From positions 44,144-108,143 of the forward strand of contig WFPK01000052.1 in assembly GCA_015487555.1 (NCBI GenBank): DNA of 64,000 bases, in the 5' to 3' direction. Shown here piece by piece: positions 1,293 through 42,468 of this stretch (its first letter is position 1; the number at the start of each line of letters is the position of its first letter). The position numbers were made by a program, and so were the translations under genes. The stretch comes from Phycisphaerales bacterium. GTDB taxonomy: Bacteria > Planctomycetota > Phycisphaerae > Phycisphaerales > UBA1924. The notes under the pieces are model-generated. The model saw nothing but the letters and a program-made list of their open reading frames with translations. It ran no database searches and was not told where the DNA came from.

Positions 1293-2701
1293 ACAAATGC
1301 CCTTTGTGAAAGGTCAGAATCCGAAACCACAGGCAGACGAGGTTGATGTGCGATAACCCACCCACCGACCCCCGAAACCAATAGTAACCCAACCGCAAAG
1401 CCAATCATCGGAACCCGTGAACCCCGCTGAGAACTCACAAACAGATCAAGCTCGGGCGGACGCGTCAAAGGCGATGCGTCCACAAAGATCGGCTCGGGGC
1501 TCAAATCCGGAAACGCCCGCGCAGTGAGATCGACTGCTTGCTGAGCAGGGCTGTGAAGAAAAATTTGAAGGTTGGGCTCACGAGCGAGCAAGCTCCGAAA
1601 CAAACTCCGCGGCGCATGAGGAAAATCACCAATCCCATCACCATCCTGGTCAAACCCGGAATAGTTCGACCAGAAGTTCCCCACGCCATCGGCAGAGAAC
1701 TCATTGAGCATCAGCTGACCACGACCATGCACCGTCACCTGCTCCTCATTCTCGACAAAGGCATTGTGCGAAATCACATTATCATGCGTGATCGGCGTCG
1801 CAAGCAGACCGATCTCATTGAATGCGATCTTGTTGTCGATGATGAGCCCATAAGAATCAACCGATGAAGGCGAGTTGTCGATATAAATCCCGACACGGTT
1901 GGCGAGCAACGCATTGTTCTCGACCGTAATCGCATCGCAATCCTTGAGCCCAACCCCATACCCACTTGTCCCACGATTATTGACAATCGAGTTGTGGATC
2001 AGGTGAATCTCGTTGGAATACATCAGGTAGACACCCACCGAGTTGGCGGTGAGCTCGTTGTTCTTGAGCGTAGTGCCATGCGAATACATGAAATGCAGCC
2101 CGTATCGGCTATTGCGAACATGGTTGCGAGTGATCGTCAGGTTCTCAGAGTACCAGAAGACCATATCACGAACGCCATCGATCACATTATCGACGATGAT
2201 GCAATCATCGCTCCACCAGAGCCGAACTCCATCGCCTCGGCGTCCGGGACCGAGCGCCTTGCCAACAATGGTGTTGTTGCGGATGATCGATTCGGGCGCA
2301 GGTCTGAGGTCGATCCCGAAATAAACATCCTCGAAACGATTATGCTCGATAATAACAGGCCCGGCGAAGGCACGAACCCCGGCAGGCTCTTGATCGACTG
2401 TTGAACCAGAGCCTCGGATCGTCAAGCCACGGAGGGTGATGTCCCCAGCACCCAACTCGATGACCGTGCCCTTGCCGAGCCCATCAATCGTTACAACCCC
2501 TTGCCCATCGAGCACAACAGACTTGTCTATGCGCAAGTTGCCCTCATAAACACCCGCGGGGAGAACGATCGTTGAACCCGGATCGGCCAGTTCAATCAAA
2601 CGCGATATCTCATCAACGGATTGAGGTGACTGCTGCGCCTGTGCGCCGAAGGCCGCAGCAAAGAGAACACACAAGGCCGCGATGGTTTGGATGACACTCA
2701 C
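1289..2701 (-). CDS. nosD: NosD, periplasmic parallel beta-helix Cu-maturation protein
   Basis: 470 aa with a signal-like N-terminus (MSVIQTIAALCVLFAAAFGAQAQ). It has repeated beta-helix units (IEHNRF, IRNNTI, ITRNHV, LKNNEL, VENNAL, ISHNAF). It sits between the nosB-like gene and nosF. Confidence 0.85.
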   Translation of the reverse strand: MSVIQTIAALCVLFAAAFGAQAQQSPQSVDEISRLIELADPGSTIVLPAGVYEGNLRIDKSVVLDGQGVVTIDGLGKGTVIELGAGDITLRGLTIRGSGSTVDQEPAGVRAFAGPVIIEHNRFEDVYFGIDLRPAPESIIRNNTIVGKALGPGRRGDGVRLWWSDDCIIVDNVIDGVRDMVFWYSENLTITRNHVRNSRYGLHFMYSHGTTLKNNELTANSVGVYLMYSNEIHLIHNSIVNNRGTSGYGVGLKDCDAITVENNALLANRVGIYIDNSPSSVDSYGLIIDNKIAFNEIGLLATPITHDNVISHNAFVENEEQVTVHGRGQLMLNEFSADGVGNFWSNYSGFDQDGDGIGDFPHAPRSLFRSLLAREPNLQIFLHSPAQQAVDLTARAFPDLSPEPIFVDASPLTRPPELDLFVSSQRGSRVPMIGFAVGLLLVSGVGGWVIAHQPRLPVVSDSDLSQRAFV

Positions 2702-3375
2702 GGCTGAGCTTCTGCCTTCTTTGCTTCCTGCTGCGCCTTGACCAAAGGCGAATACGCCCGCCAGTGGAAGAACAACGCGATAAGAATCACAAACGACGAG
2801 ATCGTCGCCAAGATCAAACCAAGACCAGGCATCGCCACCGTCTTAAACTGCCCCACCATCCCTGTACCCAAAACCGGAGGCACAAACGGCTCGATCGAGT
2901 TCGAAAGCGGCGCATCAGGGTCAAGGTTCTGCCCAAAATAACTCATCCAGAGATGCAAATCTATCAGAAAGACCGCAGGGAACAAAAGCACCGGAAGAAC
3001 CAACAGCACCGTCCATCGGCTATGAATCCAACTCGCCAGCTCAAGCAAAATCACGAACCCAATAAGAAGATACACACCAACAGACCGTTCGATCTGGGCC
3101 GCCTCTTCAAGCGGGCGCATCCCGATATAGTGATTCAGGCTGTCGATCTCGGCAACATCACCCGCAAGATGAGTCACATACGCGATCAAGTGCAGATTCT
3201 CAGGGTACTGCGGGGCGACGAGTTCCATATGCCAAAAGGGCACAAACAACGAAACCAGCAAAAGCACACGGGCAATCAACAACAAGAACCCAGGAGCCCC
3301 ATAGGTCAGGCTGTTCTTTTCAAGTTCCGATTGGTCAACACGCGGACCGATCACTTTTTCGAGGAATGGGGACAT
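2698..3375 (-). CDS. nosB: NosB-like polytopic membrane protein (start trimmed to MSPFLEK)
   Basis: Several hydrophobic helices. It lies directly downstream of nosZ, as the nosB gene does in clade II nos clusters. AGGAGA lies about 9 nt upstream of the ATG at 3375. The assignment rests on position and topology only. Confidence 0.55.
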   Translation of the reverse strand: MSPFLEKVIGPRVDQSELEKNSLTYGAPGFLLLIARVLLLVSLFVPFWHMELVAPQYPENLHLIAYVTHLAGDVAEIDSLNHYIGMRPLEEAAQIERSVGVYLLIGFVILLELASWIHSRWTVLLVLPVLLFPAVFLIDLHLWMSYFGQNLDPDAPLSNSIEPFVPPVLGTGMVGQFKTVAMPGLGLILATISSFVILIALFFHWRAYSPLVKAQQEAKKAEAQP

Positions 3376-3463
3376 AAAGCGTATCTCCTGGGTGCGTATC
3401 CTGCATGAATCTCGGGTTTGAAAACGCCACACACGCTCTCACGCGTGTGGCATGAAGAGAATA

Positions 3464-5455
3464 TTAATCGCGAGGCTCAACCATAAGGTACCCCATCATC
3501 TCCAAGTGAAGCGCCGAACAGAACTCGGTGCAGTAGAACGGGAAGGTACCCGCAGTATCTGCAACGAACTCGACCGTCGCGGTTTCGCCAGGCTCAAGAC
3601 TCAGTGTGATATTGTACACCGGAATCGAGAACCCGTGGGTCGCGTCAATCGCACGCTCGGTGTTGGTAATCCGCCATTTGACGGTATCGCCCTGCTTGAC
3701 AGTCACATGCTCAGGCGTAAAGTGGCTCCGCATCGCGGTCATAAAGACCTCGACTTCACGATCGCCCTTACGCTCGACACGCTCCATCTTGGCCCGTGGT
3801 GCCCAAGGATCGACCGACTGCGTGTGCGGATCCCAACCAATTTCTGGGTAAACCCACCAAGGATTGAGCTTGTCGGCCTTGATGATCTGAGCATAGTGAG
3901 GCTCACCAATACCCAAAGGCATGTCGTAGATCACAGGCATGTGGGTGCCCTGCTGCGAGATATCAAGGAGCTGGAAGTTCTGAGGAAGCAACGGGCCCAC
4001 ACCGATGAAACGATCGACCGCCCACTTGTTGTACGCAACAAGATACTTGCCGTCAGGATCAACCGTATCGCCCTCGGCTGCGCCAAGATGACCAATGTTA
4101 TAATGCACAGGAGTCTTGGTAACAAGCGTCCAATCTGGCTCTGGATTCAGCTTGCCATACGAGCCCCCCAAGGTCCAACGGGCGACCGCCGAATCAAGGA
4201 AGAGCGAGGTGTAGGCATACCCGTCAGGACCAAACTGCGTGTGCAGCGGGCCAAGCCCAACTTCAACCTGGGCTTCGACAACCGCATCGAAATCGAGCAC
4301 GGGAACGCCGAACTCATCTTTACCCGAGAAGGTCTTGTTGGCGATTGCCTTCTTGATCTTCGCGAACGAATAGATGGTCGTATGCGGATCAAGCTTGCCC
4401 GAAACCACAATAAAGTCACCCTTAGGAGCCACATCAACACCGTGAGGACTCCGAGGCTCGGGGGTCAGGTAAAGAAGCCCCTCAGCGATCGCGGTTTGAA
4501 GCGAGATCACTTCCATACCCTTGATCGTGCTGGTTTTGCCAGCCTCATAAACTTCCGCTGCCTTCTTCCAGTTGATGATGTGCAGATAGTCCGTCGCGTT
4601 CATACTCACGCCGGCTTCAAATGGTGGGTTTTTCTCACCCGCGACACCGATACCCCCAGTCGCCAACTCGGTATTGATCGAGTTGAGGAAGAAATACCCA
4701 TCGCTCTCGAGTTTGCCACAGTCGGCAATATCCTGCCAATATGGTGGCAGCTCGATCGCAAACGATTGATCCACATCAATCCGACCCTTCTTGCGATCAA
4801 ACTTCCACATGGTGACCGCACCACGGAAGTCCTCTTTGTAATCGCTCATCGGCGCATAATCAGCACCCCAAGGCACATTGTATTGTGCCGTTTCAAACAC
4901 ATAATCAGTGTTTGGAGTCACGAACGCACCGCCATGGTCATTGATGAACAGCGGGTTCTTGACGATCTGCTTGGTCTCGAAGTCACGAAGATCAATCACG
5001 GCCATGCGCGCGTTCGATTTATCGTTGACGAAGAGCCATTCCCCGTCATAGTCGCCATTGGTTTCCGAGAGGGCCGGGTGATGGGTATCGCCCCAACGGT
5101 TCTCTTTGCCTTGAACATTGCCCGCATCGAGGATGTCATCGCCCACGCCATATCCATACCCCTGCCAAGGCTCGGGGGTGAAGACAGCGATCGTGCGAAG
5201 AAGTCGCATCGAAGGGACACCGATGACAAAGACTTGCCCCGAGTGTCCACCCGAGGACATAATGACATATTCATCCTTCATGCCTGTCGGGGTGTAGGTC
5301 ATTGCTGCAGCAATGAGGTCTTGAGTGGTCAAGCCCCGTTCCTTTGCAACCTTCTGAACATCGTTCATCGACTGCGCCATGGCCGATGATGCCGTTCCAA
5401 GTGCCACCACCCCTGCTGCGAGCATGAGCTTGGAACTAAATCGCGTGAGTGCCAT
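3464..5455 (-). CDS. nosZ: Nitrous-oxide reductase NosZ, Sec-dependent (clade II type)
   Basis: 663 aa with the C-terminal CuA motif ...HGFSI...FYCTEFCSALHLEMMGYLMV. The N-terminus MALTRFSSKLMLAAGVVALGTASSAMAQS is a signal peptide without a twin-arginine motif. Confidence 0.95.
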   Translation of the reverse strand: MALTRFSSKLMLAAGVVALGTASSAMAQSMNDVQKVAKERGLTTQDLIAAAMTYTPTGMKDEYVIMSSGGHSGQVFVIGVPSMRLLRTIAVFTPEPWQGYGYGVGDDILDAGNVQGKENRWGDTHHPALSETNGDYDGEWLFVNDKSNARMAVIDLRDFETKQIVKNPLFINDHGGAFVTPNTDYVFETAQYNVPWGADYAPMSDYKEDFRGAVTMWKFDRKKGRIDVDQSFAIELPPYWQDIADCGKLESDGYFFLNSINTELATGGIGVAGEKNPPFEAGVSMNATDYLHIINWKKAAEVYEAGKTSTIKGMEVISLQTAIAEGLLYLTPEPRSPHGVDVAPKGDFIVVSGKLDPHTTIYSFAKIKKAIANKTFSGKDEFGVPVLDFDAVVEAQVEVGLGPLHTQFGPDGYAYTSLFLDSAVARWTLGGSYGKLNPEPDWTLVTKTPVHYNIGHLGAAEGDTVDPDGKYLVAYNKWAVDRFIGVGPLLPQNFQLLDISQQGTHMPVIYDMPLGIGEPHYAQIIKADKLNPWWVYPEIGWDPHTQSVDPWAPRAKMERVERKGDREVEVFMTAMRSHFTPEHVTVKQGDTVKWRITNTERAIDATHGFSIPVYNITLSLEPGETATVEFVADTAGTFPFYCTEFCSALHLEMMGYLMVEPRD

Positions 5456-5540
5456 TTTCTTTCCTTTCCTGCTATTTCTATCTGTAAGTCCTGAATTAGC
5501 CTTCTAACAAACGCTGCCTACGAGCAGCGTGATACGATGC

Positions 5541-6359
5541 TCAATCTGCGGTGTCGATTGAGCGGATGTAACTGATAATGTCCTTGAGCTCGTCATCGGT
5601 AATCGCCGGATTCCCACCCTTGGGAGGCATGTCAACCCCGGTGGTATTGGCTGCATCCCAGACAGGACGCCCCATCTTGATCATCGTTAGCAACTCCTTA
5701 TCTGACGCGTCCTTCACAAACTGACTGGTCGTGAATGGTTTGCCCAATCCTTCCATCCCCTCGCCATTGGGCCCATGGCATGTCGAACAGGCCGAGACAA
5801 AGAGATCACGCCCGACGATCTCACCCCCCCCTTCGGGTGTCGCTGGACGCTCGATGATCCATTCGTCCATCGAGGCTCGTGGAGCCGACGGATCCTGAAG
5901 CGTGCGGATATAGGCAATGACATCCATGATCTGCTCGTCGCTGATCCCCTGTGCCCCCCGGGCAGGCATCGGCATCCCGGTGGTATTGGCCGGATCATCG
6001 GGCATACGCCCATTGGCGATATTATTGAACAGTTCGGTATCGTCGTTGTCGAGCACATAGCTCGTGTTGACCAAAGGCTTGCCCAACCCCACAATCCCCT
6101 TGGCATCGGGGCCATGGCAAACCTTGCAGGTGTTCATGTATACCATCTCACCCGGGGACATCGGCTCAACAAGCGATTCATAAGCGACCGCCGAGGCGTC
6201 CTCGGTCTTCTCCGAAACCGGAGGCCCAGCGATAATCACCGCGATGATAATAATCGGAAGTGTGATCATAAAGAGCACATTGACCCCGATCACTTTGAGT
6301 CGTTCGGGATCTGCCCCTGACGGAACTCCTGAACCACCGTGTCCTTGCTGGCTTGTCAT
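5541..6359 (-). CDS. Membrane-anchored dihaem c-type cytochrome (putative electron donor to NosZ)
   Basis: 272 aa with an N-terminal TM helix (VNVLFMITLPIIIIAVIIAG). There are two CxxCH motifs (CKVCH, CSTCH), each followed by GLGKP. It lies directly upstream of nosZ on the same strand. Confidence 0.85.
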   Translation of the reverse strand: MTSQQGHGGSGVPSGADPERLKVIGVNVLFMITLPIIIIAVIIAGPPVSEKTEDASAVAYESLVEPMSPGEMVYMNTCKVCHGPDAKGIVGLGKPLVNTSYVLDNDDTELFNNIANGRMPDDPANTTGMPMPARGAQGISDEQIMDVIAYIRTLQDPSAPRASMDEWIIERPATPEGGGEIVGRDLFVSACSTCHGPNGEGMEGLGKPFTTSQFVKDASDKELLTMIKMGRPVWDAANTTGVDMPPKGGNPAITDDELKDIISYIRSIDTAD

Positions 6360-6654: not shown

Positions 6655-8160
6655 ATGGTATCACCCCTCTCCATTTCGGCACCTACTATGTGTGCAATGC
6701 GACCAAATACCGACTCGATCGTGCAACAACTTGCCAACTCAACCGACCCGATCGCCCATGCGGGCGAGATCGCCCACAGGTATGCCCTCTGCGAACACCA
6801 CACCCCTGTGGCCCCCTACCGGCTCCCCGCTGAACTTGAGTCTCAACTTGACCTCGCGATCCATGAGAATGGCGAATCTGCCCTGCAGGTCATGCAGACC
6901 CTTGAACAGCTCCTCAACGCAACGCCTCGGAGCACGAGCACACGATTCTGCAACCAACTCTTCAGCGGCTCAGACCCCATCGCAACCGCTGCCGATATGC
7001 TCGTGCCCGTCATCAACACTTCCCTCTACACATTCAAAGCGGCCGGTCCGATGACCATGATCGAACAGCTGGTTATCGGGCGAATGGCAGAACTCTTGGG
7101 ATTCAAAGACTCCCCAAATAAGCCCGAGGGCATCTTCACCCCAGGTGGTTCCATCTCCAACCTTGTCGCCATGCTCATCGCACGCAATGAAACCTGCCCC
7201 GCGCTCCGCAACGAAGGGGCCCCGAGCAAGAAAATCCTGTGCTATGCCTCGGCCGATGCCCACTACTCCATCGTCAAAAATGCGGGGATTCTGGGGATTG
7301 GTCGCGGCAATGTACGCCAGATTCCGACCGATCGCTCGGGCACCATGGACCTCGACATCCTCGCCCAAAGGCTCCGAGACGATCGCGACGCCGGGCACCT
7401 CCCCAGCGTCATCATCGCCACCGCGGGCACAACAGTCCGTGGCTCGTTTGATCCCATCGACCAGATCATCCCGATCGCGCAGGAGTTTGGGCTTTGGGTG
7501 CATGTCGACGCATGCTTTGGCGGAGCAGCAGCCCTGAGCCCAACGCATCAGCACCTGCTCGCAGGTGTCGAGCTCGCCGACTCGGTCGCATGGAACCCGC
7601 ACAAGGTCATGGGCGTGCCGCTCTCGGCAGCGGCACTCATCACCCGAAAATCCGGATACCTAAGCAAGAACTTTGACGAAACCGCTGATTACCTCTTCCA
7701 AGGCGACGATGATGCCCTGAACCCAGGCACCCGCTCGATCCAATGTGGGCGACGCAACGACGCCCTCAAGGTCTGGGCCGCCTGGAAACACCACGGCGAC
7801 ATCGGATACCGCGATCGCATCGACCGCCTGATGGGCATCGCACGCTACGCAGCCGACGCGATCCAAGCCCACGATGATCTCGTGCTCTCGTGCGATCCTA
7901 TGTATGTCAATGTCTGCTTCGAGGTCCGCAACAAATCGAGCCGAGCGATCTGTGACCTGCTGCGTGAGCGCAACGAACTACTCGTCGGGCACGCCGAGGT
8001 CGAAGGTCGCCGGGTAATCCGCATTCCATTTGTCAACGGCTCACTCACTGACGACGACGCAAACGAGATGCTCGAACTGATTCTCAACGCTGCCGAGACA
8101 CTCCCCGCAGGAGACAACGCGATCGCATCGGCACCGAGCAGCCCAGCCTCGCCCTACTGA
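6655..8160 (+). CDS. Group II pyridoxal-phosphate-dependent decarboxylase (start uncertain: 6496/6655/6688)
   Basis: PLP-lysine motif AWNPHKVMGVPLSAAALI, plus HVDACFGGAA. The overall length is typical of GAD/CSAD/DABA-decarboxylase-like enzymes. Confidence 0.8.
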   Translation: MVSPLSISAPTMCAMRPNTDSIVQQLANSTDPIAHAGEIAHRYALCEHHTPVAPYRLPAELESQLDLAIHENGESALQVMQTLEQLLNATPRSTSTRFCNQLFSGSDPIATAADMLVPVINTSLYTFKAAGPMTMIEQLVIGRMAELLGFKDSPNKPEGIFTPGGSISNLVAMLIARNETCPALRNEGAPSKKILCYASADAHYSIVKNAGILGIGRGNVRQIPTDRSGTMDLDILAQRLRDDRDAGHLPSVIIATAGTTVRGSFDPIDQIIPIAQEFGLWVHVDACFGGAAALSPTHQHLLAGVELADSVAWNPHKVMGVPLSAAALITRKSGYLSKNFDETADYLFQGDDDALNPGTRSIQCGRRNDALKVWAAWKHHGDIGYRDRIDRLMGIARYAADAIQAHDDLVLSCDPMYVNVCFEVRNKSSRAICDLLRERNELLVGHAEVEGRRVIRIPFVNGSLTDDDANEMLELILNAAETLPAGDNAIASAPSSPASPY

Positions 8161-9581
8161 CCAACCGACCGACGCCTTGCAAAGAGCAGCCCCATCCAGG
8201 CGATGAGCAGATTGCCCAAGAAGAACGCGGCGACAAGTCCGCACCCGGCAAGAATGTAGTGATTCGAAGAATCGAGCCACTGCGGCCTGGCGAGCCCGTC
8301 ATACCGCCGAACTGCAGTAATCAATCCCGAAACAGTCAGCCAACCAATCAACGCCACCACGCCCACATTGAATCCAATGATCCATCGACGAAATCGGCAT
8401 GAAGAGAGCACGGTCGGATCTGTACCTCGGCGCGCATAAATCTCGATCACCATCCACGAAATCGCTGCAAAGAGCACCATCGCGTCGATCCCGATCTCCG
8501 CGCCCATCCCATGGGCCATCACCACCGTCGTCCCATGGATCAACGCATTGAGCGGCGGGATCGACATCAGAATCGAAGTCGCCAGGATGTATCCAGTCCA
8601 CCACTTGGCCGAGGCAAGAAAAAGCTTGATCGGGCAAGGCGGCGAAGGGCACCTGCTCTTGACCATCGAGGCGATATCCCAGACTACCCGCGCGAGGATG
8701 ATGATCTCGGTCATCGAAATCACAAAGCTGATCCACTTGACCATATGATTCTGAGGCAGGTGGTAAGTATGATGCCCAAAGTTCGTAAATGAGTTGAGCA
8801 ACCCAACCCCAAAGAGCGCATAGGCCAAACGCGAATGAGCATATGACTCGCACTTGGTGATTTTGACGCCGATATACACCAGACTCCCATACACCAGCAG
8901 ATTGAAGCTCCCCACCAAGGTACCCGTGGCTTTCCACTGCAGCCGAATATCCGTCAGCGGATCGGCAAACACACGCGAAAGCAACCAGGCATGCTGCTCG
9001 ATGAAAGTGTAGACAAAAAACAATACCCCAACCGCCCACATCGAAACATGCACCGGGCGATGGAGCAACCCCTTGCCAAGGATCGCAAAGAAGTTCCAAG
9101 TAAAAAGCAGCCAACCGAGCAGCACAGGGATCGAGAAGATCGGATGGAACCCCAGATATTCACGCCCGGAGAACACGCCAAAGAGCAACGAGCCCAAAAT
9201 CCCCCCCCCCGCGATCGCCCAAAGGATCACCTGAATGCGAAGCCTCCATCGCTCGGCTTGTCCCATCGCCCCCGCAACATCCTCGAAATACCGATGCACG
9301 ACCGCGATGCCGCCGAGGAAGATAAATGCCGCTGCGAATGTCGTGTGGATCGGGCGTAAGGAGGCGAACTGAATCCCAAGCCGTTGCATAACTGATGCGA
9401 TAGCAGGGATGTAATACAGAACCCCCAACACCCCGGCCCCGAGCGCGATGGCCAATGAAACAATCGACCCGCGCATAAATGTAAGTGTGGCATACCGACG
9501 AGACGGATCGACATCTCGAAAATTGGCCCCAAGAACAGGCTCGTCGAAGCGCACAGGCTGGGCATCATCAGATTGCGTCAT
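8154..9581 (-). CDS. Heme-copper oxidase superfamily subunit I-like protein (CcoN/NorB-like, divergent)
   Basis: 475 aa with about 12 TM segments. By eye these motifs align to the CcoN helix II, VI, VII and X motifs: FASLRPIHTTFAAAFIFLGG, IEQHAW, NFGHHTYHLP and NALIHGTTVVMAHGMGAEIG. The start overlaps the upstream cytochrome c stop (ATGA). Confidence 0.6.
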   Translation of the reverse strand: MTQSDDAQPVRFDEPVLGANFRDVDPSRRYATLTFMRGSIVSLAIALGAGVLGVLYYIPAIASVMQRLGIQFASLRPIHTTFAAAFIFLGGIAVVHRYFEDVAGAMGQAERWRLRIQVILWAIAGGGILGSLLFGVFSGREYLGFHPIFSIPVLLGWLLFTWNFFAILGKGLLHRPVHVSMWAVGVLFFVYTFIEQHAWLLSRVFADPLTDIRLQWKATGTLVGSFNLLVYGSLVYIGVKITKCESYAHSRLAYALFGVGLLNSFTNFGHHTYHLPQNHMVKWISFVISMTEIIILARVVWDIASMVKSRCPSPPCPIKLFLASAKWWTGYILATSILMSIPPLNALIHGTTVVMAHGMGAEIGIDAMVLFAAISWMVIEIYARRGTDPTVLSSCRFRRWIIGFNVGVVALIGWLTVSGLITAVRRYDGLARPQWLDSSNHYILAGCGLVAAFFLGNLLIAWMGLLFARRRSVGQ

Positions 9582-10402
9582 TCATACTCCCACCAAGGCA
9601 AAGAGCTCCAGAATGGCTTTGACTCCTCGACCACACGGTCGAGCACACTTTGGCGGCGATCGGCGAGAAAAGAAATAAACGCTTCAACACTCGCCATTTG
9701 ATCCGCCGAGAGCCGAGACGGAGGCATCATCGGCGGACGACCGAACTCGAGCACATCGACAATTTCCTGAGCACTGAGCACCCCCCCCGAGATCGAAAGG
9801 TCAGGCCCGCCAATGGCCGACACCGCATAGAGCGTATGACAGGCCTGGCATGTATTTGTCCGAAAGATTTCGTACCCGGCTTCAACCTCAACATCTCCCG
9901 ATTCGGCGATCACCAACTCGAGGGCTTTGGTTTGAGCACTCTCCCTTGCCTGCCCAATGTGTGGATTCCGCGCCTGCCCGATCCCCGTCTGATCCATCGC
10001 TTCTAGAAACGCCCAGAGCGCATCGACCTCGGCAGTGCCCATTTCATAACGAGGCATCTGCCCTTCGCCAAGCGCCAAGCGGACATCGAGTTGATCGCGT
10101 TCCAAGCGTGCTGCTGCGTTGGTCAGGTCTGGCCCCAGAAATCCACCAAATCCATGGAGCTGATGGCAGGCTTGGCAGTTGTTCTGCATCCAAAGCCCAC
10201 GCCCCACAACCGCCTGTTCATCGAGCTGCACGCTGGATTTGGTATCAGAATACACAAGGACAGTCTGAAGCACAAAGCCCATCGCCAACAAGACAATCAT
10301 GCCCCCCTTCATCTGCGGACTGCACCTCGCTGGCCAATGCTGAGCGTTCCAATGCGAGATGGTCTTGAGGAAACCCATAAGCGACAAGTGTAGCGAACTC
10401 AA
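9578..10402 (-). CDS. Dihaem c-type cytochrome, membrane anchored (start uncertain, possibly 10312)
   Basis: Two CxxCH motifs (CQACHQLHGFGGFLGPDL and CQACHTLYAVSAIGGPDL). N-terminal hydrophobic helix MIVLLAMGFVLQTVLVY. It is translationally coupled to the oxidase-like gene. Confidence 0.8.
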   Translation of the reverse strand: MSSLHLSLMGFLKTISHWNAQHWPARCSPQMKGGMIVLLAMGFVLQTVLVYSDTKSSVQLDEQAVVGRGLWMQNNCQACHQLHGFGGFLGPDLTNAAARLERDQLDVRLALGEGQMPRYEMGTAEVDALWAFLEAMDQTGIGQARNPHIGQARESAQTKALELVIAESGDVEVEAGYEIFRTNTCQACHTLYAVSAIGGPDLSISGGVLSAQEIVDVLEFGRPPMMPPSRLSADQMASVEAFISFLADRRQSVLDRVVEESKPFWSSLPWWEYE

Positions 10403-10435: not shown

Positions 10436-11482
10436 TCACCTGACTTCCCAAGATTCGTTCCCCGTTACCAGCGATTGCAAATCAGGCCGTCCACCCTTTT
10501 TCTTTGCATCTTTCTTTGCATCATCGAGCTGCTGATAGAGCAGTTGGTCGTAGGTTGGTTTGGATGGGTCGGCATAAAGGATACCCATTGGCTCTGGGAA
10601 CTCCGGATGGGCCATCTGGGCATACATATTGGCAAGGAACCGGTCGGTCTCATCATGGACAATCAGGTCGGATTCGGTGATCCCATCTTCGCCGATGGTC
10701 ACGACCTTGGGGCTCCCACAGTTGAAGATGATCCCCTTATCTCGATCATTCCCAAAGACCAAAGGCTTGCCGTGCTCGAGCTTGACCGTGGTCTCGTACA
10801 TCGTCTCCTTCTGCGATGCATAGAACCATGCTTTGTGATTAAAGATATTGCAATCCTGATACACCTCGACAAACGAAGTGCCCCGGTGGGCCATCGCCCG
10901 CTTGAAGATCGTGTCCAACCCCTTCATATCGACATCGAGAGATCGGGCGATAAAAGTGCATCCTGTTGCCACCGCCACCGCAATCGGGTTGATCGGATAG
11001 TCGATCGACCCGGCAGGAGATGTCGGCGAAATCTTCCCCGTTTCGCTTGTCGGCGAGTACTGTCCCTTGGTAAGTCCATAAATCTTGTTGTTGAGCAACA
11101 GAATCGTAAGATCGACATTGCGTCGCATCGTGTGGATCGTGTGGTTACCTCCGATCGAGAGCAGATCACCATCGCCAGCAACAACGCAAACCTCAAGCTC
11201 GGGATTGGCACACTTGACTCCCGTCGCAACGGCCAATCCACGCCCATGGATCGAATGCACGCCATAGGTTGCCATGTAGTATGGGAACCGCGATGAACAC
11301 CCGATCCCGGAGACGAAGACAAAGTCTTCCTTCTTCTTGCCCATGCTCGGCAGGGCTTTGCGTACCGCCGAGAGCACCGCATAGTCGCCGCACCCCGGGC
11401 ACCATCGGACATCCTGATCGGAGGTGAAATCCTTGGCTGAATAAATGGGAAGCTCGGTGCTCTTTGTGTCTGTCACGCTCAT
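10436..11482 (-). CDS. korB: 2-oxoacid:ferredoxin oxidoreductase beta subunit (TPP-binding)
   Basis: WCPGCGDYAVLSAV and the GDGDLLSIGGNH TPP motif. It overlaps the alpha subunit stop. Confidence 0.85.
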   Translation of the reverse strand: MSVTDTKSTELPIYSAKDFTSDQDVRWCPGCGDYAVLSAVRKALPSMGKKKEDFVFVSGIGCSSRFPYYMATYGVHSIHGRGLAVATGVKCANPELEVCVVAGDGDLLSIGGNHTIHTMRRNVDLTILLLNNKIYGLTKGQYSPTSETGKISPTSPAGSIDYPINPIAVAVATGCTFIARSLDVDMKGLDTIFKRAMAHRGTSFVEVYQDCNIFNHKAWFYASQKETMYETTVKLEHGKPLVFGNDRDKGIIFNCGSPKVVTIGEDGITESDLIVHDETDRFLANMYAQMAHPEFPEPMGILYADPSKPTYDQLLYQQLDDAKKDAKKKGGRPDLQSLVTGNESWEVR

Positions 11483-13359
11483 TGTTCCAGCACCTCCGTG
11501 ATGCGTTCAACCAGTGTATCAACCCGGAAGGGCTGCCCCTTGACGATGTTGATCCCGATCGTTTCAATCAGAAACTTCGACCGGATCAACATGCTCAGCT
11601 GCCCGAGATTGATCTCTGGGATGACGATCTTCTTGAATGATCGCAAAACCTCTTCGGTATTTGATGGGAATGGGTTGAGATATTGCAAGTGGGCCGAGCT
11701 GACGGCATGCCCATTGGCCCGCACCTGATGAACTGCGGTGGTGATCGAGCCATAGGTTCCGCCCCACCCCAGCACGAGCACATCGCCCGATGGATCGCCA
11801 TCGACCTCAAGGAGCGGGATCGACTGGGCTGCCCGTTCGACCTTCTCTGCCCGCAAACGCACCATCATGTCGTGATTGTCTGCGTCATAGGACACATTGC
11901 CAGTCTCTGCATCCTTCTCCAAGCTCCCCACCCGATGCTCGAGCCCGGGTGTGCCTGGGATCGCCCATGGGCGGGCGAGTGTCTCTGGATTGCGGGCATA
12001 GGGAAGGAACTCATGCTCGGCGAAGTCCTCCTGAGTCGGATGCACGACATCGATATCAGGAATATCGCCCACATTGGGCACCTTCCAAGGCTCGGCACCA
12101 TTGGCGATGTAGCCATCGGAAAGATAGATCACCGGGGTCATGAACTCAACCGCAAGTCGAACCGCCTCGATGGCCATATTGAAACAGTCCGACGGGCTTC
12201 GGGGAGCCACGATAATCAACGGGCTCTCGCAATGCCTGCCGTACATCGCCTGGAGCAGGTCGGCCTGCTCGGTCTTGGTCGGAAGCCCGGTCGCCGGGCC
12301 CGCCCGCTGGACATTGACAATGACCAAAGGCAGCTCGAGCATCAATGCCAGCCCCATCGCTTCGCCTTTGAGCGCCAGTCCTGGTCCTGAGGTGCCCGTC
12401 ACCGCCAGATCACCCGCGAAGCTCGCGCCGATGGCGGTACAGATCGCCGCGATCTCATCTTCGGATTGGATCGTCTTGATCCCGAAGCGTTTGAGATGCG
12501 CCAACCCGTGCATCACACTCGACGCCGGGGTGATTGGGTAGCTCGCGTAGACGATCGACTTGTCGGCCTTTTGTGCAGCCGTCACCAACCCCAGGACGGT
12601 TGCCTCGTTGCCACTGATCTGGCGATAGGTTCCCTTTTCCTGTTTGGCAGGCGGAACCCGATACCGTGCCGGGAAGACCTCTGCGGTTTCCCCGAAGTAA
12701 TATCCCGCTTCGAGCGCACGGATGTTGATTTTGGCAACCTCGGGCAACCCCTTCTTCTGGGCAAACTTCTCGGTGAGGTAGGCTTTGGTTTGTTCGATGG
12801 GGCGTTCGTAGAGCCAGTAGACGATTCCGAGTGCGAACATATTTCGGCACCGGTTGATGTCCTTAGCGCCCATCCCCGAATCGGCGAGCGATTCCTTGGT
12901 CAGCCGAGACATCGGCACGCGCACAAGGTGGTACTTGTTGTTGATCTCCTCATCATCGAGCGGGTTGTACCCGTCGATATACCCGCATTTGGCGAGGTTT
13001 CCCTTGGTGAACTCGTCTTCGTTGACAATCACGATCCCACCGGGTTCGACATCACCAATATTCACCTTGAACCCTGCCGGGTTCATCGCGACCATCGCGT
13101 TGACCCGATCGCCTGGGGTGTAGATATGCTCGGAGGAAAAGTGGACCTGGAACCCGGAAACCCCGAAGGTCGTGCCCTTGGGCGCTCGGATTTCTGCGGG
13201 AAAGTCTGGGAAAGTGGCGAAGTCGTTGCCGAAGAGTGCGGAAGTGTCGGCAAACTGTCCGCCGGTGAGTTGCATCCCGTCGCCGGAGTCGCCACAGAAT
13301 CGGATGACGACGGAATCGAGTGTGGTTTCTGGGGTCTCGCTCGCTTGGTCGCTCGTCAT
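11479..13359 (-). CDS. korA: 2-oxoacid:ferredoxin oxidoreductase alpha subunit
   Basis: 626 aa with typical KorA-like N-terminal (gamma-like) and pyrimidine-binding domains. It forms an operon with korB. Confidence 0.85.
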   Translation of the reverse strand: MTSDQASETPETTLDSVVIRFCGDSGDGMQLTGGQFADTSALFGNDFATFPDFPAEIRAPKGTTFGVSGFQVHFSSEHIYTPGDRVNAMVAMNPAGFKVNIGDVEPGGIVIVNEDEFTKGNLAKCGYIDGYNPLDDEEINNKYHLVRVPMSRLTKESLADSGMGAKDINRCRNMFALGIVYWLYERPIEQTKAYLTEKFAQKKGLPEVAKINIRALEAGYYFGETAEVFPARYRVPPAKQEKGTYRQISGNEATVLGLVTAAQKADKSIVYASYPITPASSVMHGLAHLKRFGIKTIQSEDEIAAICTAIGASFAGDLAVTGTSGPGLALKGEAMGLALMLELPLVIVNVQRAGPATGLPTKTEQADLLQAMYGRHCESPLIIVAPRSPSDCFNMAIEAVRLAVEFMTPVIYLSDGYIANGAEPWKVPNVGDIPDIDVVHPTQEDFAEHEFLPYARNPETLARPWAIPGTPGLEHRVGSLEKDAETGNVSYDADNHDMMVRLRAEKVERAAQSIPLLEVDGDPSGDVLVLGWGGTYGSITTAVHQVRANGHAVSSAHLQYLNPFPSNTEEVLRSFKKIVIPEINLGQLSMLIRSKFLIETIGINIVKGQPFRVDTLVERITEVLEQ

Positions 13360-13598
13360 GTGTGTCTCGCTCTCCCATTGAGTTGTTGTCAGTGAGCGGC
13401 CCAGACCGAGCCGGACTGAATGGATATTTTAGGCCTACTGAGAGCAAGATTGCTCGATCTTGGACGAACCAATTCCTATCCGCCCATCAATCTTCCACCC
13501 CACCTTTGGGAAAGATGATTCAGACGATACCTCTCCAAGCCGCGTTGCGCTTGCTATTATGCACCTCAAGCTCCCCAACTCCAACATGAGAGATATCT

Positions 13599-15164
13599 AT
13601 GCGGATTGGAATACCAAAGGAAATTCATCCCGGCGAACGCCGGGTCGCGGGCACCCCCAAGACGGTCAAAAAACTCATCGAGATGGGCTTTGAAGTGGTC
13701 GTCGAGGAGGAGGCAGGGCTGGCAGCTGAACATCACGACGAGATGTACGCCCAGGCGGGCGCCACACTCACCGACGATGTCAAAGCGCTCTGGAGCGAAT
13801 CGGACATCATCCTCAAAGTCCATTCCCCCCAGATTCACCCTACGCTCGGGGTGCATGAGGCGGATTTGATCAAAGAGGGTGGATGCCTGATCGGGTTCAT
13901 CTGGCCCGCCCAGAACCAGGACATCCTCGACAAGCTCAATGCCCGCAAGGCCTCGGTGCTTGCGATGGACTGCGTGCCCCGCATTACCCGTGCCCAGAAG
14001 GTCGATGCGCTCAGCGCGATGGCCAATGCAGCCGGGTATCGCGCCGTGATCGAAGCGGTCAATGTCTATCCCCGGTTCCTCACCGGACAGAGCACGGCTG
14101 CAGGTGCGATCAAGCCCGCCAAGGTGCTTGTGATCGGTGCCGGGGTCGCCGGGCTCGCTGCGATCGGGGCTGCCAAAGCACTGGGCGCGATCGTCCGGGC
14201 CTTTGATACACGCCTCGAAGTCGGCGATCAGGTCCGCTCGATGGGCGCCGAGTTCTTGGAGCTCGACTTCAAAGAAGACGGCTCAGGATCCGGCGGCTAT
14301 GCCAAGGTCATGTCCAAAGAGTTCATCGACGCCGAGATGAAACTCTTTGCCCAGCAAGCGATGGAAGTGGACATCATCATCACCACCGCGCTGATCCCGG
14401 GCAAACCCGCCCCATTGTTGATTACCGCGGGGATGGTCGAGTCCATGCGCGAGGGCGGCGTGATTGTCGATCTCGCTGCCCAGCAAGGCGGCAACTGTGC
14501 CCTGACCAAAGCCGACGAGCTCGTCATCCACAAAGGCGTCCGCATTGTCGGGTACACCGACCTGCCGAGCCGCATGGCGATCCAGACGAGCTGGCTCTAC
14601 GCTTCGACCTTGGTCAATATGCTTGACGAGATGGGCGGGGCCGAGCACTTTACGATTGATCTCGACAATGAAATTATCCGTGGCTCGCTCGTGTGTCATC
14701 ATGGCGAAACCACCTGGCCTCCGCCTGAGATTCCTGCTCCAGTCGTCGCGACTTCGCCCGACCAACCAAGGGCAGTAGAAACCCAGACGCCCAGTGCAAC
14801 CCAAGAACCCAAGAGAAAGTCCAAAGCCCTGAGTTCCATCATCATGCTCGTTGCTGTGATCGCTCTTTTCGGGCTCGGGCGGGTTGCTCCGAGCGATTTC
14901 CTCGATCACTTCACCGTGTTCGTGCTCGCGTGCTTCGTGGGATGGCAGGTCGTGTGGAATGTGACCCCGGCGTTGCATACGCCTTTGATGAGCGTCACCA
15001 ACGCCATCAGCGGGATCATCCTGATCGGGGGGATGTTCCATCTTTCCGGTGCTCCCACCGCTGCGATCACGCTCTTGGGGACCGCTGCGGTGTTCCTGGC
15101 AGCGATCAATATCTCAGGCGGGTTCCTCGTGACACGCCGAATGCTCTCGATGTTCCATAAGTAA
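13599..15164 (+). CDS. pntA: NAD(P) transhydrogenase alpha subunit (dI plus membrane part)
   Basis: AlaDH/PNT fold with VLVIGAGVAGLAAIGAAKALGA, and C-terminal TM helices. Confidence 0.9.
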   Translation: MRIGIPKEIHPGERRVAGTPKTVKKLIEMGFEVVVEEEAGLAAEHHDEMYAQAGATLTDDVKALWSESDIILKVHSPQIHPTLGVHEADLIKEGGCLIGFIWPAQNQDILDKLNARKASVLAMDCVPRITRAQKVDALSAMANAAGYRAVIEAVNVYPRFLTGQSTAAGAIKPAKVLVIGAGVAGLAAIGAAKALGAIVRAFDTRLEVGDQVRSMGAEFLELDFKEDGSGSGGYAKVMSKEFIDAEMKLFAQQAMEVDIIITTALIPGKPAPLLITAGMVESMREGGVIVDLAAQQGGNCALTKADELVIHKGVRIVGYTDLPSRMAIQTSWLYASTLVNMLDEMGGAEHFTIDLDNEIIRGSLVCHHGETTWPPPEIPAPVVATSPDQPRAVETQTPSATQEPKRKSKALSSIIMLVAVIALFGLGRVAPSDFLDHFTVFVLACFVGWQVVWNVTPALHTPLMSVTNAISGIILIGGMFHLSGAPTAAITLLGTAAVFLAAINISGGFLVTRRMLSMFHK

Positions 15165-15236
15165 TCCAGAAACAGCTCGTTTCATCTGTTTTCCATTGCT
15201 CCATCCAAACCACAAACAGGTTCATGCAGGTTCACG

Positions 15237-16637
15237 ATGCCCAACAACATTGCCACTGTCGCCTACATCATCGCTGCGGCGTTGTTCATTCTGAGTCTTT
15301 CCGGGCTCGCTCATCCCAAAACCTCCCGGCGAGGTAATCTCTTCGGAATCATCGGGATGCTCGTTGCGCTGATCGCGACCGCGTTTCATCTCAATGCGTC
15401 TGGATGGATGATGTTCCTGATCGCCCTGATCCCCGCGGCCATCATCGGTGCGACCTTGGCGAGCCGGGTGAAGATGACCGAGATGCCTCAGCTCGTCGCG
15501 ATGCTTCACAGCTTCGTAGGTGCCGCAGCGGTGCTCGTCGGGTTTGCCACGCTGCTCGATCCACACGCCCAACTCGCTGGCAGCGAGCTACTGATCCACA
15601 ACATCGAAATCTACATCGGGGTGTGTATCGGGTCGATCACATTCACCGGCTCGATCATCGCCTTTGCCAAGCTCCACGGGATGATCGGAGGCAAGCCTCT
15701 GATCCTGCCTGCGAGACACCTGCTCAATATCATCGTCATCCTCATCACCATCGTGCTCGGCGTGATGTTCACGCAGGCTGTGGGCGATCATGACATGACC
15801 AAGGCGCTCTGGGTGCTGGGGATCGCCACCGTCATCACCGGACTCCTCGGAGTTCACATGGTCATGGCCATCGGCGGGGCGGATATGCCCGTGGTGGTCT
15901 CGATGCTCAATAGCTACTCCGGGTGGGCTGCAGCAGCGGCCGGGTTTATGCTCTCCAATGACCTGCTGATTATCACCGGCGCCCTGGTGGGCTCGAGCGG
16001 TGCGATCCTGAGCTACATCATGTGCAGGGGAATGAACCGCTCATTTATCAGTGTGATCCTCGGTGGATTCGGTGCTGCCGAGGGGACCGCAGTGGCGGTT
16101 GAAGGCGAACATACCGAGATCAAGGTCGATGGCACCGTCGATCTGATCCGCAATGCCAAGAGCATTGTCATCGTGCCCGGATACGGCATGGCGGTGGCGC
16201 AGGCCCAGCACACACTCTCCGAGATTGTCAAAGAACTCGAAGCGGCTGGCACCAAGGTTCGATTTGCAATCCATCCGATCGCCGGTCGGCTCCCCGGGCA
16301 TATGAATGTGCTCCTCGCCGAGGCCAATGTCTCCTACGACATCGTGCTCGAGATGGACGAGATCAACGAAGACTTCCCCGAAACCGACCTGGTGCTCGTC
16401 ATCGGTGCCAACGATATCGTCAACCCCAGCGCCCTCGATGACCCCGCCAGCCCGATCGCCGGGATGCCCGTGCTCGAAGTCTGGAAGGCCAAGGATGTCA
16501 TTGTGATGAAGCGGAGCATGGCCAGCGGATACGCCGGGATCGGCAACCCGCTGTTCGTCAAGGAGAACACCAAGATGCTCTTCGGCGATGCGAAGAAAAA
16601 TGTCGATGCCATCCTCACCGCCTACCGCACCGGATGA
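15237..16637 (+). CDS. pntB: NAD(P) transhydrogenase beta subunit
   Basis: Multi-TM N-terminal half plus a dIII NADP(H) domain ([27 protein letters not shown]). Confidence 0.9.
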
Positions 16638-29215: not shown

Positions 29216-29225
29216 CGCCGATCTC

Positions 29226-31148: not shown

Positions 31149-31364
31149 CTCACAGACATATTTGCCCAAAGATCGGTTCCTTGATCTCGTCCCCAACCTC
31201 AGTGTACCACAAAATCATCCCGCGGCCGCCGATGCGTCCGAGAACCAGACCGCTTTTCTCAGATCATGCCCGAAGATGATCTGGAAGCCCTCATATCCTC
31301 ACTTTTTTGCGCATCTTCAAGGGTTCAGATCATCGTGGACAAAACGCACCCGATCCACATCCAC

Positions 31365-32654: not shown

Positions 32655-32771
32655 CGCAATACCTCCACCGAGCACGGGCACAACGCACCAGATTGCCCAG
32701 TATGACAGAAATGCCATAAAAACAACGCGTTGACCGTGATATCGGCCAGCGCGTCGTTTGTTGCAAATAAA

Positions 32772-42423: not shown

Positions 42424-42468
42424 ACTGCGAGCATTGCAGCATTTTGAGCAAGACCAAACCAATCCAAT

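What the first reader, a model, noticed from the sequence alone, without database searches (positions are those of the whole stretch)
8154..10402. Divergent C-family-like heme-copper oxidase lacking the cross-link Tyr, with HxM in place of HxH, paired with a dihaem cytochrome c (candidate novel NO reductase)
By-eye alignment to CcoN motifs recalled from memory shows conservation at three places. These are the helix II ligand (FASLRPIHT versus FGRLRPLHT), the helix VI His (EQHAW versus YGHNA), and the helix VII HH pair (FGHHTYH versus GPHHLHY). In cbb3 oxidases the cross-linked Tyr lies six residues before the HH pair (YIWAGPHH). Here that position reads SFTNFGHH, with no Tyr. The helix X motif GHVHAGALG reads AHGMGAEIG, so the second His, which is the low-spin haem ligand, appears replaced by Met. 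The partner is a membrane-anchored dihaem c, not a CcoO/NorC-type monohaem. The pair sits about 1.8 kb from a clade II nos cluster. Together this fits an NO-reducing rather than O2-reducing enzyme, of a type that is not the canonical cNOR or qNOR.
Basis: partly seen in the sequence, partly recalled or inferred. Interest (0 to 1): 0.65.

Follow-up and report, generated by a model that had tools for sequence, protein, structure and literature searches.

The report
Divergent NorCB-like haem enzyme, remodelled active site
This gene pair encodes a membrane haem enzyme descended from bacterial nitric oxide reductase that has lost two of the residues that normally hold the catalytic iron. It belongs to a large, widespread and biochemically untested family, so its substrate (probably NO) is still an open question.

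Summary
The sequence features are mostly real, but one key point is wrong and the family assignment shifts. The 475-aa protein (8154-9581, minus strand) is a 12-helix haem-copper-oxidoreductase subunit I. His79, the His270/His271 pair, His357 and the His-x-Met motif (Met359 in place of the second haem-b His) are confirmed. They are near-invariant in 322 relatives. No Tyr occupies the cbb3 cross-link position. However, "EQHAW" lies at the end of helix V, not in helix VI. The canonical helix VI metal-ligand His is Gly220, and the cNOR Glu211 ligand is also missing. Profile comparisons put both subunits nearest cNOR, not cbb3. The partner is a NorC-type haem domain with a second c-haem domain added. 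The pair belongs to a large clade (388 representatives at 50% identity) in Planctomycetota, Gemmatimonadota and Bacteroidota. The only conserved neighbour is the cytochrome c gene. nosZ is nearby in 2 of 79 loci. nNOR membership is excluded. The clade probably matches the uncharacterised "cNOR-related, putative N2O reductase" family mentioned by Murali et al. 2024. The best guess is a cytochrome-c-fed NO reductase with a rebuilt non-haem site (confidence about 0.4).

The parts
8154..9581 (-). NorB-like haem-copper-oxidoreductase subunit I, 475 aa, 12 predicted transmembrane helices. Key codons: His79 9345-9347; Glu141 9159-9161; Glu195 8997-8999; Asp211 8949-8951; Lys217 8931-8933; Gly220 8922-8924 (position of the canonical helix VI His); Asn227 8901-8903; Tyr231 8889-8891; Ser264 8790-8792 (cbb3 Tyr position); His270/His271 8769-8774; Glu292 8706-8708; His357 8511-8513; Met359 8505-8507.
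   Evidence: Pfam COX1 63.5 bits. AlphaFold pLDDT 81, pTM 0.85, 12 helices. Foldseek top hits are CcoN and NorB, TM 0.74-0.82. hhalign to NorB/qNOR gives probability 99.3%. Residue conservation in 322 relatives. Codon coordinates checked.
9578..10312 (-). Membrane-anchored dihaem cytochrome c subunit (244 aa from the ATG at 10312; the mechanical ORF runs up to the TTG at 10402). It has an N-terminal anchor of about 20 residues. The NorC-type domain has CQACH at ORF residues 76-80 and Met116. The second c-haem domain has CQACH at 185-189 and Met226. The C-terminal PWWE(Y/F) tail is conserved. Its stop codon overlaps the start of the NorB-like gene by 4 bases.
   Evidence: Two Cytochrome_CBB3/Cytochrom_C domains. 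Conserved residues in 72 orthologues. Profile versus PDB: NorC 3o0r_C E=8.6e-15 for the first domain, CcoP C-terminal domain about 1e-9 for the second. Found directly upstream of the subunit I gene in 75-79 of 79 loci. A GAGGTG Shine-Dalgarno-like motif lies before the ATG at 10312. Gene callers start it at residue 35 in the near-identical contig.

Best explanation
The two genes encode a cNOR-derived, two-subunit membrane haem enzyme, a NorCB-like complex.

Proposed electron path:
- Electrons from a periplasmic donor enter through the added second c-haem domain.
- They pass to the NorC-type c haem.
- They then pass to a low-spin haem b held by His79 and Met359. This ligation should raise its potential relative to bis-His.
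- They end at a high-spin haem b3 held by His357.

Proposed catalytic pocket:
- The pocket keeps only the His270/His271 pair of the cNOR FeB ligands.
- The two helix VI ligands (His207 and Glu211 in cNOR) have become Gly.
- Glu292 (equivalent to cNOR Glu280), Lys217 and possibly the invariant Glu195 from helix V are proposed to complete a rebuilt non-haem site. This could be of the 2-His-plus-carboxylate type.

Proposed reaction:
- The most likely reaction is two-electron reduction of NO to N2O.
- Protons would come from the periplasmic side, because Glu141 and Asp211 (equivalent to Glu135 and Asp198 of the cNOR periplasmic proton route) are retained.

What is shown: homology of both subunits to NorB and NorC, the fold, the ligand substitutions and their conservation, and the conserved two-gene unit.

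What is inferred: cofactor content, which residues touch the metal, the electron path and the substrate.
For: - The broad family profile hits NorB best (4xyd_A E=6e-27; 3o0r_B 1.4e-20), ahead of qNOR and cbb3.
- hhalign to NorB/qNOR gives probability 99.3%.
- The partner matches NorC at E=8.6e-15, and the gene order norC-like then norB-like holds in 75-79 of 79 loci with overlapping stop and start codons.
- In Bacteroidota relatives the partner is a monohaem protein that aligns with the first domain only.
- Near-invariant in 322 clade members: His79 (321), Glu141 (319), Glu195 (322), Asp211 (310), His270 (320), His271 (319), His357 (319), Met359 (318).
- No Tyr at the cbb3 cross-link position or at i+4 of the helix VI ligand position. 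This argues against four-electron O2 reduction (principle stated in PMC11214002).
- Positions 217, 220 and 292 switch together: K/G/E in about 305 sequences and H/D/A in 15. This fits their lying together at one site.
- Natural fusions of the subunit I with multihaem c domains exist (P0143, P0160).
Against: - Two of the four cNOR FeB ligands (His207, Glu211) and two further conserved cNOR glutamates (Glu138, Glu215) are absent. From my own recall of the P. denitrificans cNOR mutagenesis literature, which I did not re-read, the equivalents of Glu211 and Glu138 are needed for NO reductase activity.
- No denitrification gene is a conserved neighbour. nosZ is nearby in 2 of 79 loci and no nir gene was seen. 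Bacteroidota members sit among housekeeping genes.
- There is no enrichment of FNR/Dnr-type boxes upstream (10 of 72 loci against 29 of 405 background windows).
- AlphaFold confidence is low exactly around the proposed site (residues 203-214 and 268-274). No coordinates were available, so contacts of Glu195, Lys217 and Glu292 are untested.
- No member of the family has been assayed.
Confidence: 0.4

Rival explanations
1. It is a haem-based, non-copper N2O reductase. Murali et al. 2024 speculated this for an uncharacterised family 'closely related to cNOR', on the basis of the membrane-bound, acetylene- and sulfide-insensitive N2O reductase activity of Flexibacter canadensis.
For: The clade is nearest cNOR and lacks the Tyr. 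It is abundant in Sphingobacteriales, Chitinophagaceae and Flavobacteriaceae, the group that includes F. canadensis. The published description is in PMC11214002. The active site differs strongly from NO-reducing cNOR.
Against: I could not show that this clade is the published family, because its sequence lists are not held. The window organism already has a complete clade II nosZ cluster 1.8 kb away. There is no conserved linkage to nos accessory genes. No biochemical precedent exists for N2O reduction by this enzyme superfamily.
Confidence: 0.12
2. It reduces an oxygen species. It would be either a low-turnover terminal oxidase or a membrane cytochrome-c peroxidase-like detoxifier in aerobes, and not an N-oxide enzyme.
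For: Carriers are mostly aerobic or microaerobic heterotroph lineages, and the genes sit in housekeeping contexts without nitrogen-cycle neighbours. A two-electron reduction such as H2O2 to water needs no Tyr cofactor. A high-potential His/Met haem b suits a high-potential acceptor.
Against: There is no cross-link Tyr and only two of three metal-B His ligands, so canonical O2 reduction is unlikely. No peroxidase-type motif was identified. This idea rests only on context.
Confidence: 0.18
3. It is a cbb3-type (C-family) oxidase derivative, as the first reader framed it and as NCBI names it ('cbb3-type cytochrome c oxidase subunit I').
For: The close-family profile alone hit only CcoN in the PDB, weakly (E=0.012). 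Foldseek ranks a CcoN chain first by a narrow margin. The helix II and helix VI motifs resemble CcoN (RPLHT, QWW...VG.F).
Against: The more diverse profile scores NorB about 30 bits higher than CcoN. The partner matches NorC, not CcoO. The GRE(Y/F), HGT and S-x-x-E (Glu292 = Glu280) motifs are NorB-type. The defining Tyr and the helix VI His are both absent.
Confidence: 0.1
4. It has lost catalysis and serves as an electron-transfer or gas-sensing haem protein.
For: Two metal ligands are lost. AlphaFold confidence at the site is low. There is no pathway context.
Against: Near-invariance of His270/271, His357, Glu195, Asn227, Tyr231 and Ser289 over a clade that diverges to about 22% identity points to a maintained active site. 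The obligatory c-haem electron-input subunit is also retained.
Confidence: 0.08

Closest known systems
Cytochrome c-dependent nitric oxide reductase, cNOR (NorCB; e.g. P. aeruginosa 3O0R, Roseobacter 4XYD)
   Same: Both are best sequence-profile matches for their subunits. The gene order is the same, with the c-haem subunit first. The fold has 12 helices. Retained positions: His60, His258/259 and His347, plus Arg134/Glu135, Asp198, Glu280 and the HGT motif. There is no cross-link Tyr.
   Different: FeB ligands His207 and Glu211 are Gly220 and Gly224 or a deletion. Glu138 and Glu215 are absent. The second haem-b ligand His349 is Met359. There are new invariant residues: Glu195, Gln215, Lys217, Asn227, Tyr231. 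The NorC-type subunit carries an extra c-haem domain, and Phe88 replaces the Ca-binding Tyr73 of NorC. No NCBIfam NorB model is matched.
cbb3-type cytochrome c oxidase (C-family; CcoNOP, e.g. 3MK7)
   Same: Same overall fold (TM about 0.75). The helix II RP(L/I)HT and helix VI QW...VG.F motifs are similar. The second haem domain of the partner resembles the C-terminal domain of CcoP.
   Different: There is no Tyr six residues before the HH pair (Ser264). The helix VI CuB His is absent. Haem b is His/Met. There is no CcoO-type subunit. The profile score is lower than to NorB.
nNOR (Murali et al. 2024)
   Same: The low-spin haem is ligated by His and Met (PMC11214002).
   Different: nNOR is described as B-family-related, with a CuA-type subunit II homologue and the full cNOR-type 3-His-plus-Glu site. 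It was found in Thermoproteota, Chloroflexota, Proteobacteria and SAR324 only (preprint Table S2). This protein is cNOR-related, cytochrome-c-partnered, lacks His207 and Glu211, and occurs in Planctomycetota, Gemmatimonadota and Bacteroidota.
Uncharacterised 'N2O red' family of Murali et al. 2024 (closely related to cNOR, putative N2O reductase)
   Same: It is nearest to cNOR, lacks the active-site Tyr, is of substantial size and is Bacteroidota-rich, which fits the Flexibacter canadensis rationale.
   Different: Identity of the two sets could not be tested, because no sequences or residue descriptions are held. The features documented here (His/Met haem b, Gly at both helix VI ligand positions, invariant Glu195, the K/G/E versus H/D/A switch) are not described in the accessible text.
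gNOR (Murali et al. 2024)
   Same: One canonical active-site His is replaced. In the rare type-2 subclade of this family the replacement at that position is Asp, as in gNOR.
   Different: gNOR is B-family-related with a cupredoxin subunit. In the window protein the position is Gly, not Asp.

Membership tests
Haem-copper oxidoreductase superfamily, subunit I (Pfam PF00115) | 12-helix core fold and a significant match to the family profile | tested here: met
   COX1 63.5 bits against a cut-off of 34.8. AlphaFold gives 12 helices, pTM 0.85. Foldseek gives 56 PDB chains at E<=1e-3, and the 50 best-ranked chains listed are all HCO or NOR catalytic subunits.
Haem-copper oxidoreductase superfamily, subunit I (Pfam PF00115) | Six canonical His: two for the low-spin haem, one for the high-spin haem, three for the metal-B site | tested here: not met
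   Four of six are present (His79, His270, His271, His357). The helix X second His is Met359 and the helix VI His is Gly220.
C-family cbb3 oxidase (CcoN) | Cross-linked Tyr on helix VII, six residues before the HH pair | tested here: not met
   Ser264 in the window protein. Position 264 is L/S/T/A/I/M in 319 of 322 relatives, with no Tyr among the six commonest residues listed.
C-family cbb3 oxidase (CcoN) | CcoO-type monohaem subunit and closest profile similarity to CcoN | tested here: not met
   The partner's best hits are NorC (E=8.6e-15). The subunit I profile scores NorB at 97.7 bits against CcoN at 64.6 bits.
cNOR (NorCB) | NorC-type membrane-anchored c-haem subunit encoded directly upstream of norB | tested here: met
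   The first domain matches 3o0r_C and 4xyd_B. It is adjacent and overlapping in 75-79 of 79 loci. It carries an additional c-haem domain.
cNOR (NorCB) | FeB site of His207, His258, His259 and Glu211 | tested here: not met
   His207 maps to Gly220 in three independent alignments. Glu211 maps to Gly224 or a one-residue gap. Only His270/271 are retained.
cNOR (NorCB) | Bis-His low-spin haem b (His60/His349) and conserved Glu135, Glu138, Glu215, Glu280 | tested here: not met
   His349 is Met359. Glu135 (Glu141) and Glu280 (Glu292) are present. Glu138 (Gly144) and Glu215 (Asn227 or Leu228) are absent.
qNOR / NOD | Single polypeptide of about 750-800 aa with a fused haem-less NorC-like N-terminal domain and a quinol site | tested here: not met
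   The protein is 475 aa with a separate haem-bearing cytochrome c partner. qNOR chains score lower than NorB.
nNOR | His/Met ligation of the low-spin haem | tested here: met
   His79 and Met359 are invariant. This feature is shared but not sufficient.
nNOR | B-family relationship, CuA-type subunit II homologue, cNOR-like 3-His-plus-Glu site | tested here: not met
   No A- or B-family chain appears in the profile search. ba3 ranks below NorB and CcoN in Foldseek. There is no cupredoxin neighbour. His207 and Glu211 equivalents are absent. nNOR was not reported from these phyla.
'N2O red' cNOR-related family (Murali et al. 2024) | Closely related to cNOR and lacking the active-site Tyr | tested here: met
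   Description in PMC11214002.
'N2O red' cNOR-related family (Murali et al. 2024) | Same sequence set as the published family (for example presence in Solitalea/Flexibacter canadensis) | not testable with these tools
   The published datasets and HMMs are not held. The preprint tables omit this family.

The most novel reading that the evidence does not exclude
The clade is a new catalytic class within the haem-copper oxidoreductase superfamily. Its non-haem metal site has been rebuilt away from helix VI, as 2 His plus carboxylates from helices V and VIII and a Lys, or as His/Asp-rich in the type-2 variant. It performs chemistry other than NO reduction. The most striking possibility is copper-independent N2O reduction, which would be a second biological N2O sink beside NosZ.
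Probability: 0.1. Interest if true: 0.9.

Novelty: new variant of a known kind. Interest (0 to 1): 0.55.

Why it matters
NO reductases are the biological source of N2O, and NosZ is the only accepted sink. Inventories of both rest on recognising the right gene families.

This family is common in marine Phycisphaerales and Gemmatimonadota and in many Bacteroidota. It is auto-annotated either as a cbb3 oxidase or as NorB, yet it fails the defining tests of both. Gene-based budgets of respiration and N2O production may therefore be miscounting it in either direction.

Mechanistically, it would show how far the catalytic site of this superfamily can be rebuilt while remaining under strong selection. 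It has lost a His and a Glu ligand and gained a Met-ligated haem b.

If it reduces NO, it fills the 'missing NOR' in nosZ-bearing lineages. If it reduces N2O, it would be a major finding.

Tried and rejected
- Single-sequence phmmer against the PDB gave only chance hits. Profiles were needed.
- The close-family profile alone suggested cbb3. This was overturned by the broader profile.
- nNOR membership, suggested by the shared His/Met feature, was rejected on relationship, partner type, active-site residues and phylum distribution.
- Functional inference from synteny failed. Clustering of all ORFs within 7 kb in 79 loci found nothing conserved except the cytochrome c gene. nosZ/nosD occur in 2 loci, korAB in 7 and the PLP decarboxylase in 9, the last two in close relatives only.
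- A search for an FNR/Dnr-type box upstream gave 10 of 72 loci against 29 of 405 background windows, which is not informative.
- The sigma-70 and terminator scan of the region showed nothing above shuffled expectation.
- His197 as a migrated metal ligand is weakened, because it is His in only 155 of 322 clade members.
- The exact-sequence look-up of the window protein found no record. The 100%-identical P0002 gave the same context.
- Literature searches for experimental work on this clade found only the one-sentence mention in Murali et al..
- Model coordinates are not exposed by the tools, so residue-to-residue distances at the active site could not be measured.


Full report
**What is at the coordinates**

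Two overlapping minus-strand genes are present.
- 8154-9581 encodes a 475-aa membrane protein.
- 9578-10402 is the mechanical ORF of a cytochrome c. The likely start is the ATG at 10312, which is preceded by GAGGTG. Gene callers start it four codons further in on a near-identical contig.

The large protein matches Pfam COX1 at 63.5 bits (cut-off 34.8) and matches no NCBIfam model. The small one has two class-I c-haem domains.

The neighbours are as follows.
- Upstream on the same strand lie korAB-type 2-oxoacid:ferredoxin oxidoreductase genes.
- A convergent PLP-dependent decarboxylase overlaps the 3' end.
- A clade II nos cluster begins 1.8 kb away. It comprises a dihaem c, nosZ (TIGR04246, 827 bits), a membrane ORF, nosD and nosF.

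**Checking the motifs**

An alignment of 22 close relatives (A1) shows these positions invariant: His79, Glu141, Glu195-Gln196-His197, Gln215-Trp216-Lys217, Gly220, Asn227, Tyr231, Asn263 to Asn267, His270, His271, Tyr273, His274, His349, His357 and Met359.

The AlphaFold model (pLDDT 81, pTM 0.85) has 12 helices. Helix V spans 177-200, helix VI 212-242 and helix X 352-384.

Three independent alignments agree on the mapping to solved structures. They are the HMMER family profile against CcoN, a broader profile against NorB, and hhalign against a NorB/qNOR alignment (probability 99.3%, E=1.6e-20).

| Window residue | Equivalent in solved structures |
|---|---|
| His79 | His60 |
| Arg140/Glu141 | Arg134/Glu135 |
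| Asp211 | Asp198 |
| Gly220 | His207 |
| His270/271 | His258/259 (cbb3 257/258) |
| Glu292 | NorB Glu280 |
| His357 | His347 |
| Met359 | His349 |

NorB Glu211 falls on Gly224 or in a one-residue gap. Glu215 falls on Leu228 or Asn227.

Spacing read directly from the sequence supports this mapping.
- Gly220 to His270 is 50 residues (cbb3 50, cNOR 51).
- His270 to His357 is 87 residues (88 and 89).
- His197 to His270 would be 73 residues.

The 'helix VI His = EQHAW' assignment is wrong. Helix VI contains no His at all, and EQHAW sits at the periplasmic end of helix V.

**Which family it is nearest**

Foldseek ranks cbb3 CcoN and cNOR NorB together at the top (TM 0.74-0.82). qNOR follows, and ba3 and A-family oxidases come after that.

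The exhaustive profile search found 388 representatives at 50% identity with E<=1e-3, of which 286 have E<=1e-10. Scores fall continuously from 729 to below 120 bits, which indicates a large and old clade.

A profile of 24 diverse members (A2, down to 22% identity) gives the following hits against the PDB.

| PDB chain | Family | E-value |
|---|---|---|
| 4xyd_A | NorB | 6e-27 |
| 3o0r_B | NorB | 1.4e-20 |
| 3ayf | qNOR | 1.3e-17 |
| several chains | CcoN | 6.5e-17 to 1e-15 |

No A- or B-family chain appears. The NorB-type motifs GRE(Y/F), HGT and S-x-x-E are present.

The cytochrome c profile hits NorC best over the anchor and first haem domain (3o0r_C at 8.6e-15, 4xyd_B at 5e-12). It hits the C-terminal domain of CcoP over the second haem domain (about 1e-9).

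In Bacteroidota relatives the partner is a 135-137-aa monohaem protein that aligns with the first domain only. The system is therefore a norC-norB derivative. In this lineage the NorC-type subunit has gained a second haem domain and a conserved C-terminal PWWE tail.

**Conservation across the clade**

In 322 full-length members drawn from the three searches, the counts are as follows.

| Position | Count (of 322) |
|---|---|
| His79 | 321 |
| Glu141 | 319 |
| Glu195 | 322 |
| Asp211 | 310 |
| Gln215 | 317 |
| Trp216 | 319 |
| Asn227 | 318 |
| Tyr231 | 315 |
| His270 | 320 |
| His271 | 319 |
| Tyr273 | 314 |
| Ser289 | 317 |
| His349 | 318 |
| His357 | 319 |
| Met359 | 318 |

- His197 is His in only 155. 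It is otherwise Tyr or Asn.
- Position 264, the cbb3 Tyr position, is L/S/T/A/I/M in 319 of 322, with no Tyr among the commonest residues.
- Positions 217, 220 and 292 exist in two exclusive states. Lys/Gly/Glu occurs in about 305 sequences. His/Asp/Ala occurs in 15, mostly with a third His after the HH pair.

This looks like one evolutionary switch, so it is weak statistically. It does fit these positions lining one site. These sequences are not an unbiased sample.

**Genomic distribution and context**

A scan of one genome per species found 154 relatives of the close family. The 80 loci kept for inspection are all MAGs. They are Phycisphaerales and other Planctomycetota, Gemmatimonadota (Longimicrobiales, Gemmatimonadales, Palauibacter) and a Nannocystaceae.

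The Bacteroidota branch has at least 1694 clusters at 90% identity, from Flavobacteriaceae, Chitinophagaceae and Sphingobacteriales.

The cytochrome c gene is directly upstream in 75-79 of 79 loci, usually overlapping. No other neighbour is conserved. The more distant members inspected also have one or two cytochrome c genes upstream.
- nosZ and nosD are within 10 kb in 2 loci, the window included.
- korAB occurs in 7 loci and the decarboxylase in 9, in close relatives only.
- Bacteroidota members lie among housekeeping genes such as rnpA, a type II topoisomerase, pyrH, frr, pgk and a Mur ligase.

**Comparison with published families**

Murali et al. (PNAS 2024, PMC11214002) describe nNOR as having a His/Met low-spin haem. 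They also describe it as B-family-related, with CuA-type subunit homologues and the full cNOR-type site. Their preprint table reports nNOR only from Thermoproteota, Chloroflexota, Proteobacteria and SAR324. nNOR is excluded.

The same paper mentions, in one sentence and one table row, a family 'closely related to cNOR' that lacks the Tyr. It is tentatively proposed as the acetylene- and sulfide-insensitive membrane N2O reductase of Flexibacter canadensis. It was counted in 293 GTDB genomes and 597 metagenome hits.

The present clade fits that description in relationship, missing Tyr and Bacteroidota richness. I could not verify identity, because the datasets are not held.

Their per-genome table lists only one Phycisphaerales genome with any recognised NOR. 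That table was cut when stored. As far as it goes, this is consistent with these proteins not being counted among the seven NOR families.

**Mechanism**

The following are shown.
- A NorCB-derived two-subunit unit.
- Retained ligands for two b haems, one of them His/Met.
- A retained His pair at the second metal site.
- Loss of both helix VI ligands.
- New invariant polar residues: Glu195, Lys217, Asn227 and Tyr231.

The following are inferred.
- Electrons flow from the c haems to haem b and then to haem b3.
- A non-haem metal, probably Fe, is held by His270/271 plus Glu292 and perhaps Glu195.
- Protons come from the periplasm through Glu141 and Asp211, as in cNOR.
- The substrate is NO. This inference rests on ancestry and on the missing Tyr, which argues against O2 reduction.

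Against NO reduction stand the loss of Glu211 and Glu138, the lack of denitrification context and the lack of any assay.

I put NO reduction at about 0.4, oxygen-species reduction at about 0.18, N2O reduction at about 0.12, and non-catalytic or other roles at the remainder.

A possible cytoplasmic proton path through Asn227, Tyr231, Ser289 and Glu292 is speculation. It rests on the resemblance in spacing to the ba3 K-channel residues listed in the preprint's Table S1.

**Verdict**

It is cNOR-like rather than cbb3-like. It is a member of a very large uncharacterised clade that has probably already been flagged in the literature. The link to nos is not conserved. Function remains untested.

Noticed in passing
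window 417-6359 (minus strand): A clade II nos cluster. It comprises a dihaem cytochrome c (5541-6359), Sec-type nosZ (3464-5455), a 225-244-aa ORF without any Pfam hit in the nosB position (2698-3432), nosD (1289-2701) and nosF (417-1292). nosY and nosL follow beyond the window start in a near-identical contig (L086).
   Followed up: partly
window 38134-47221: tRNA-Phe (38134-38206, +) directly abuts a tyrosine integrase (38145-39497, -). An AAA_25 protein (39497-41602) and an MmeI-type restriction-modification enzyme (44144-47221) follow. This looks like an integrated mobile island at the tRNA.
   Followed up: partly
window 26672-31196 (minus strand): A two-partner secretion pair: a TPS-domain exoprotein (26672-29296) and a ShlB/FhaC-type transporter (29226-31196).
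   Followed up: no
window 31713-32912 and 32771-32846: tRNA-Met (minus strand) lies inside the 5' part of the long ORF that encodes an EF-hand repeat protein. The true start of that gene must therefore be further downstream than the mechanical ORF start.
   Followed up: no
proteins P0238, P0246, P0253, P0263-P0268 and others; locus L089: A rare 'type-2' subclade of the same family has His217/Asp220/Ala292 instead of Lys217/Gly220/Glu292, and in most of these sequences also His272 in place of Thr272. That means an Asp at the canonical helix VI His position and an HHH triplet in most members. In the one locus examined (L089) two cytochrome c genes lie upstream.
   Followed up: partly
proteins P0143, P0160, P0180, P0194: Family members of about 800 aa. 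In the two whose sequences were read (P0143, P0160) the NorB-like domain is fused to C-terminal c-haem domains. P0160 has three CxxCH motifs.
   Followed up: no
window 10436-16637: korAB-type 2-oxoacid:ferredoxin oxidoreductase genes lie on the same strand directly upstream of the cytochrome c gene, with a gap of about 120-135 bp. Divergent pntAB transhydrogenase genes follow. The kor linkage is seen in 7 close relatives only.
   Followed up: partly
whole window: GC skew is negative throughout. Cumulative skew reaches -5.6 over 64 kb and is strongest at 22-38 kb and 48-64 kb. Most long genes are on the minus strand.
   Followed up: no
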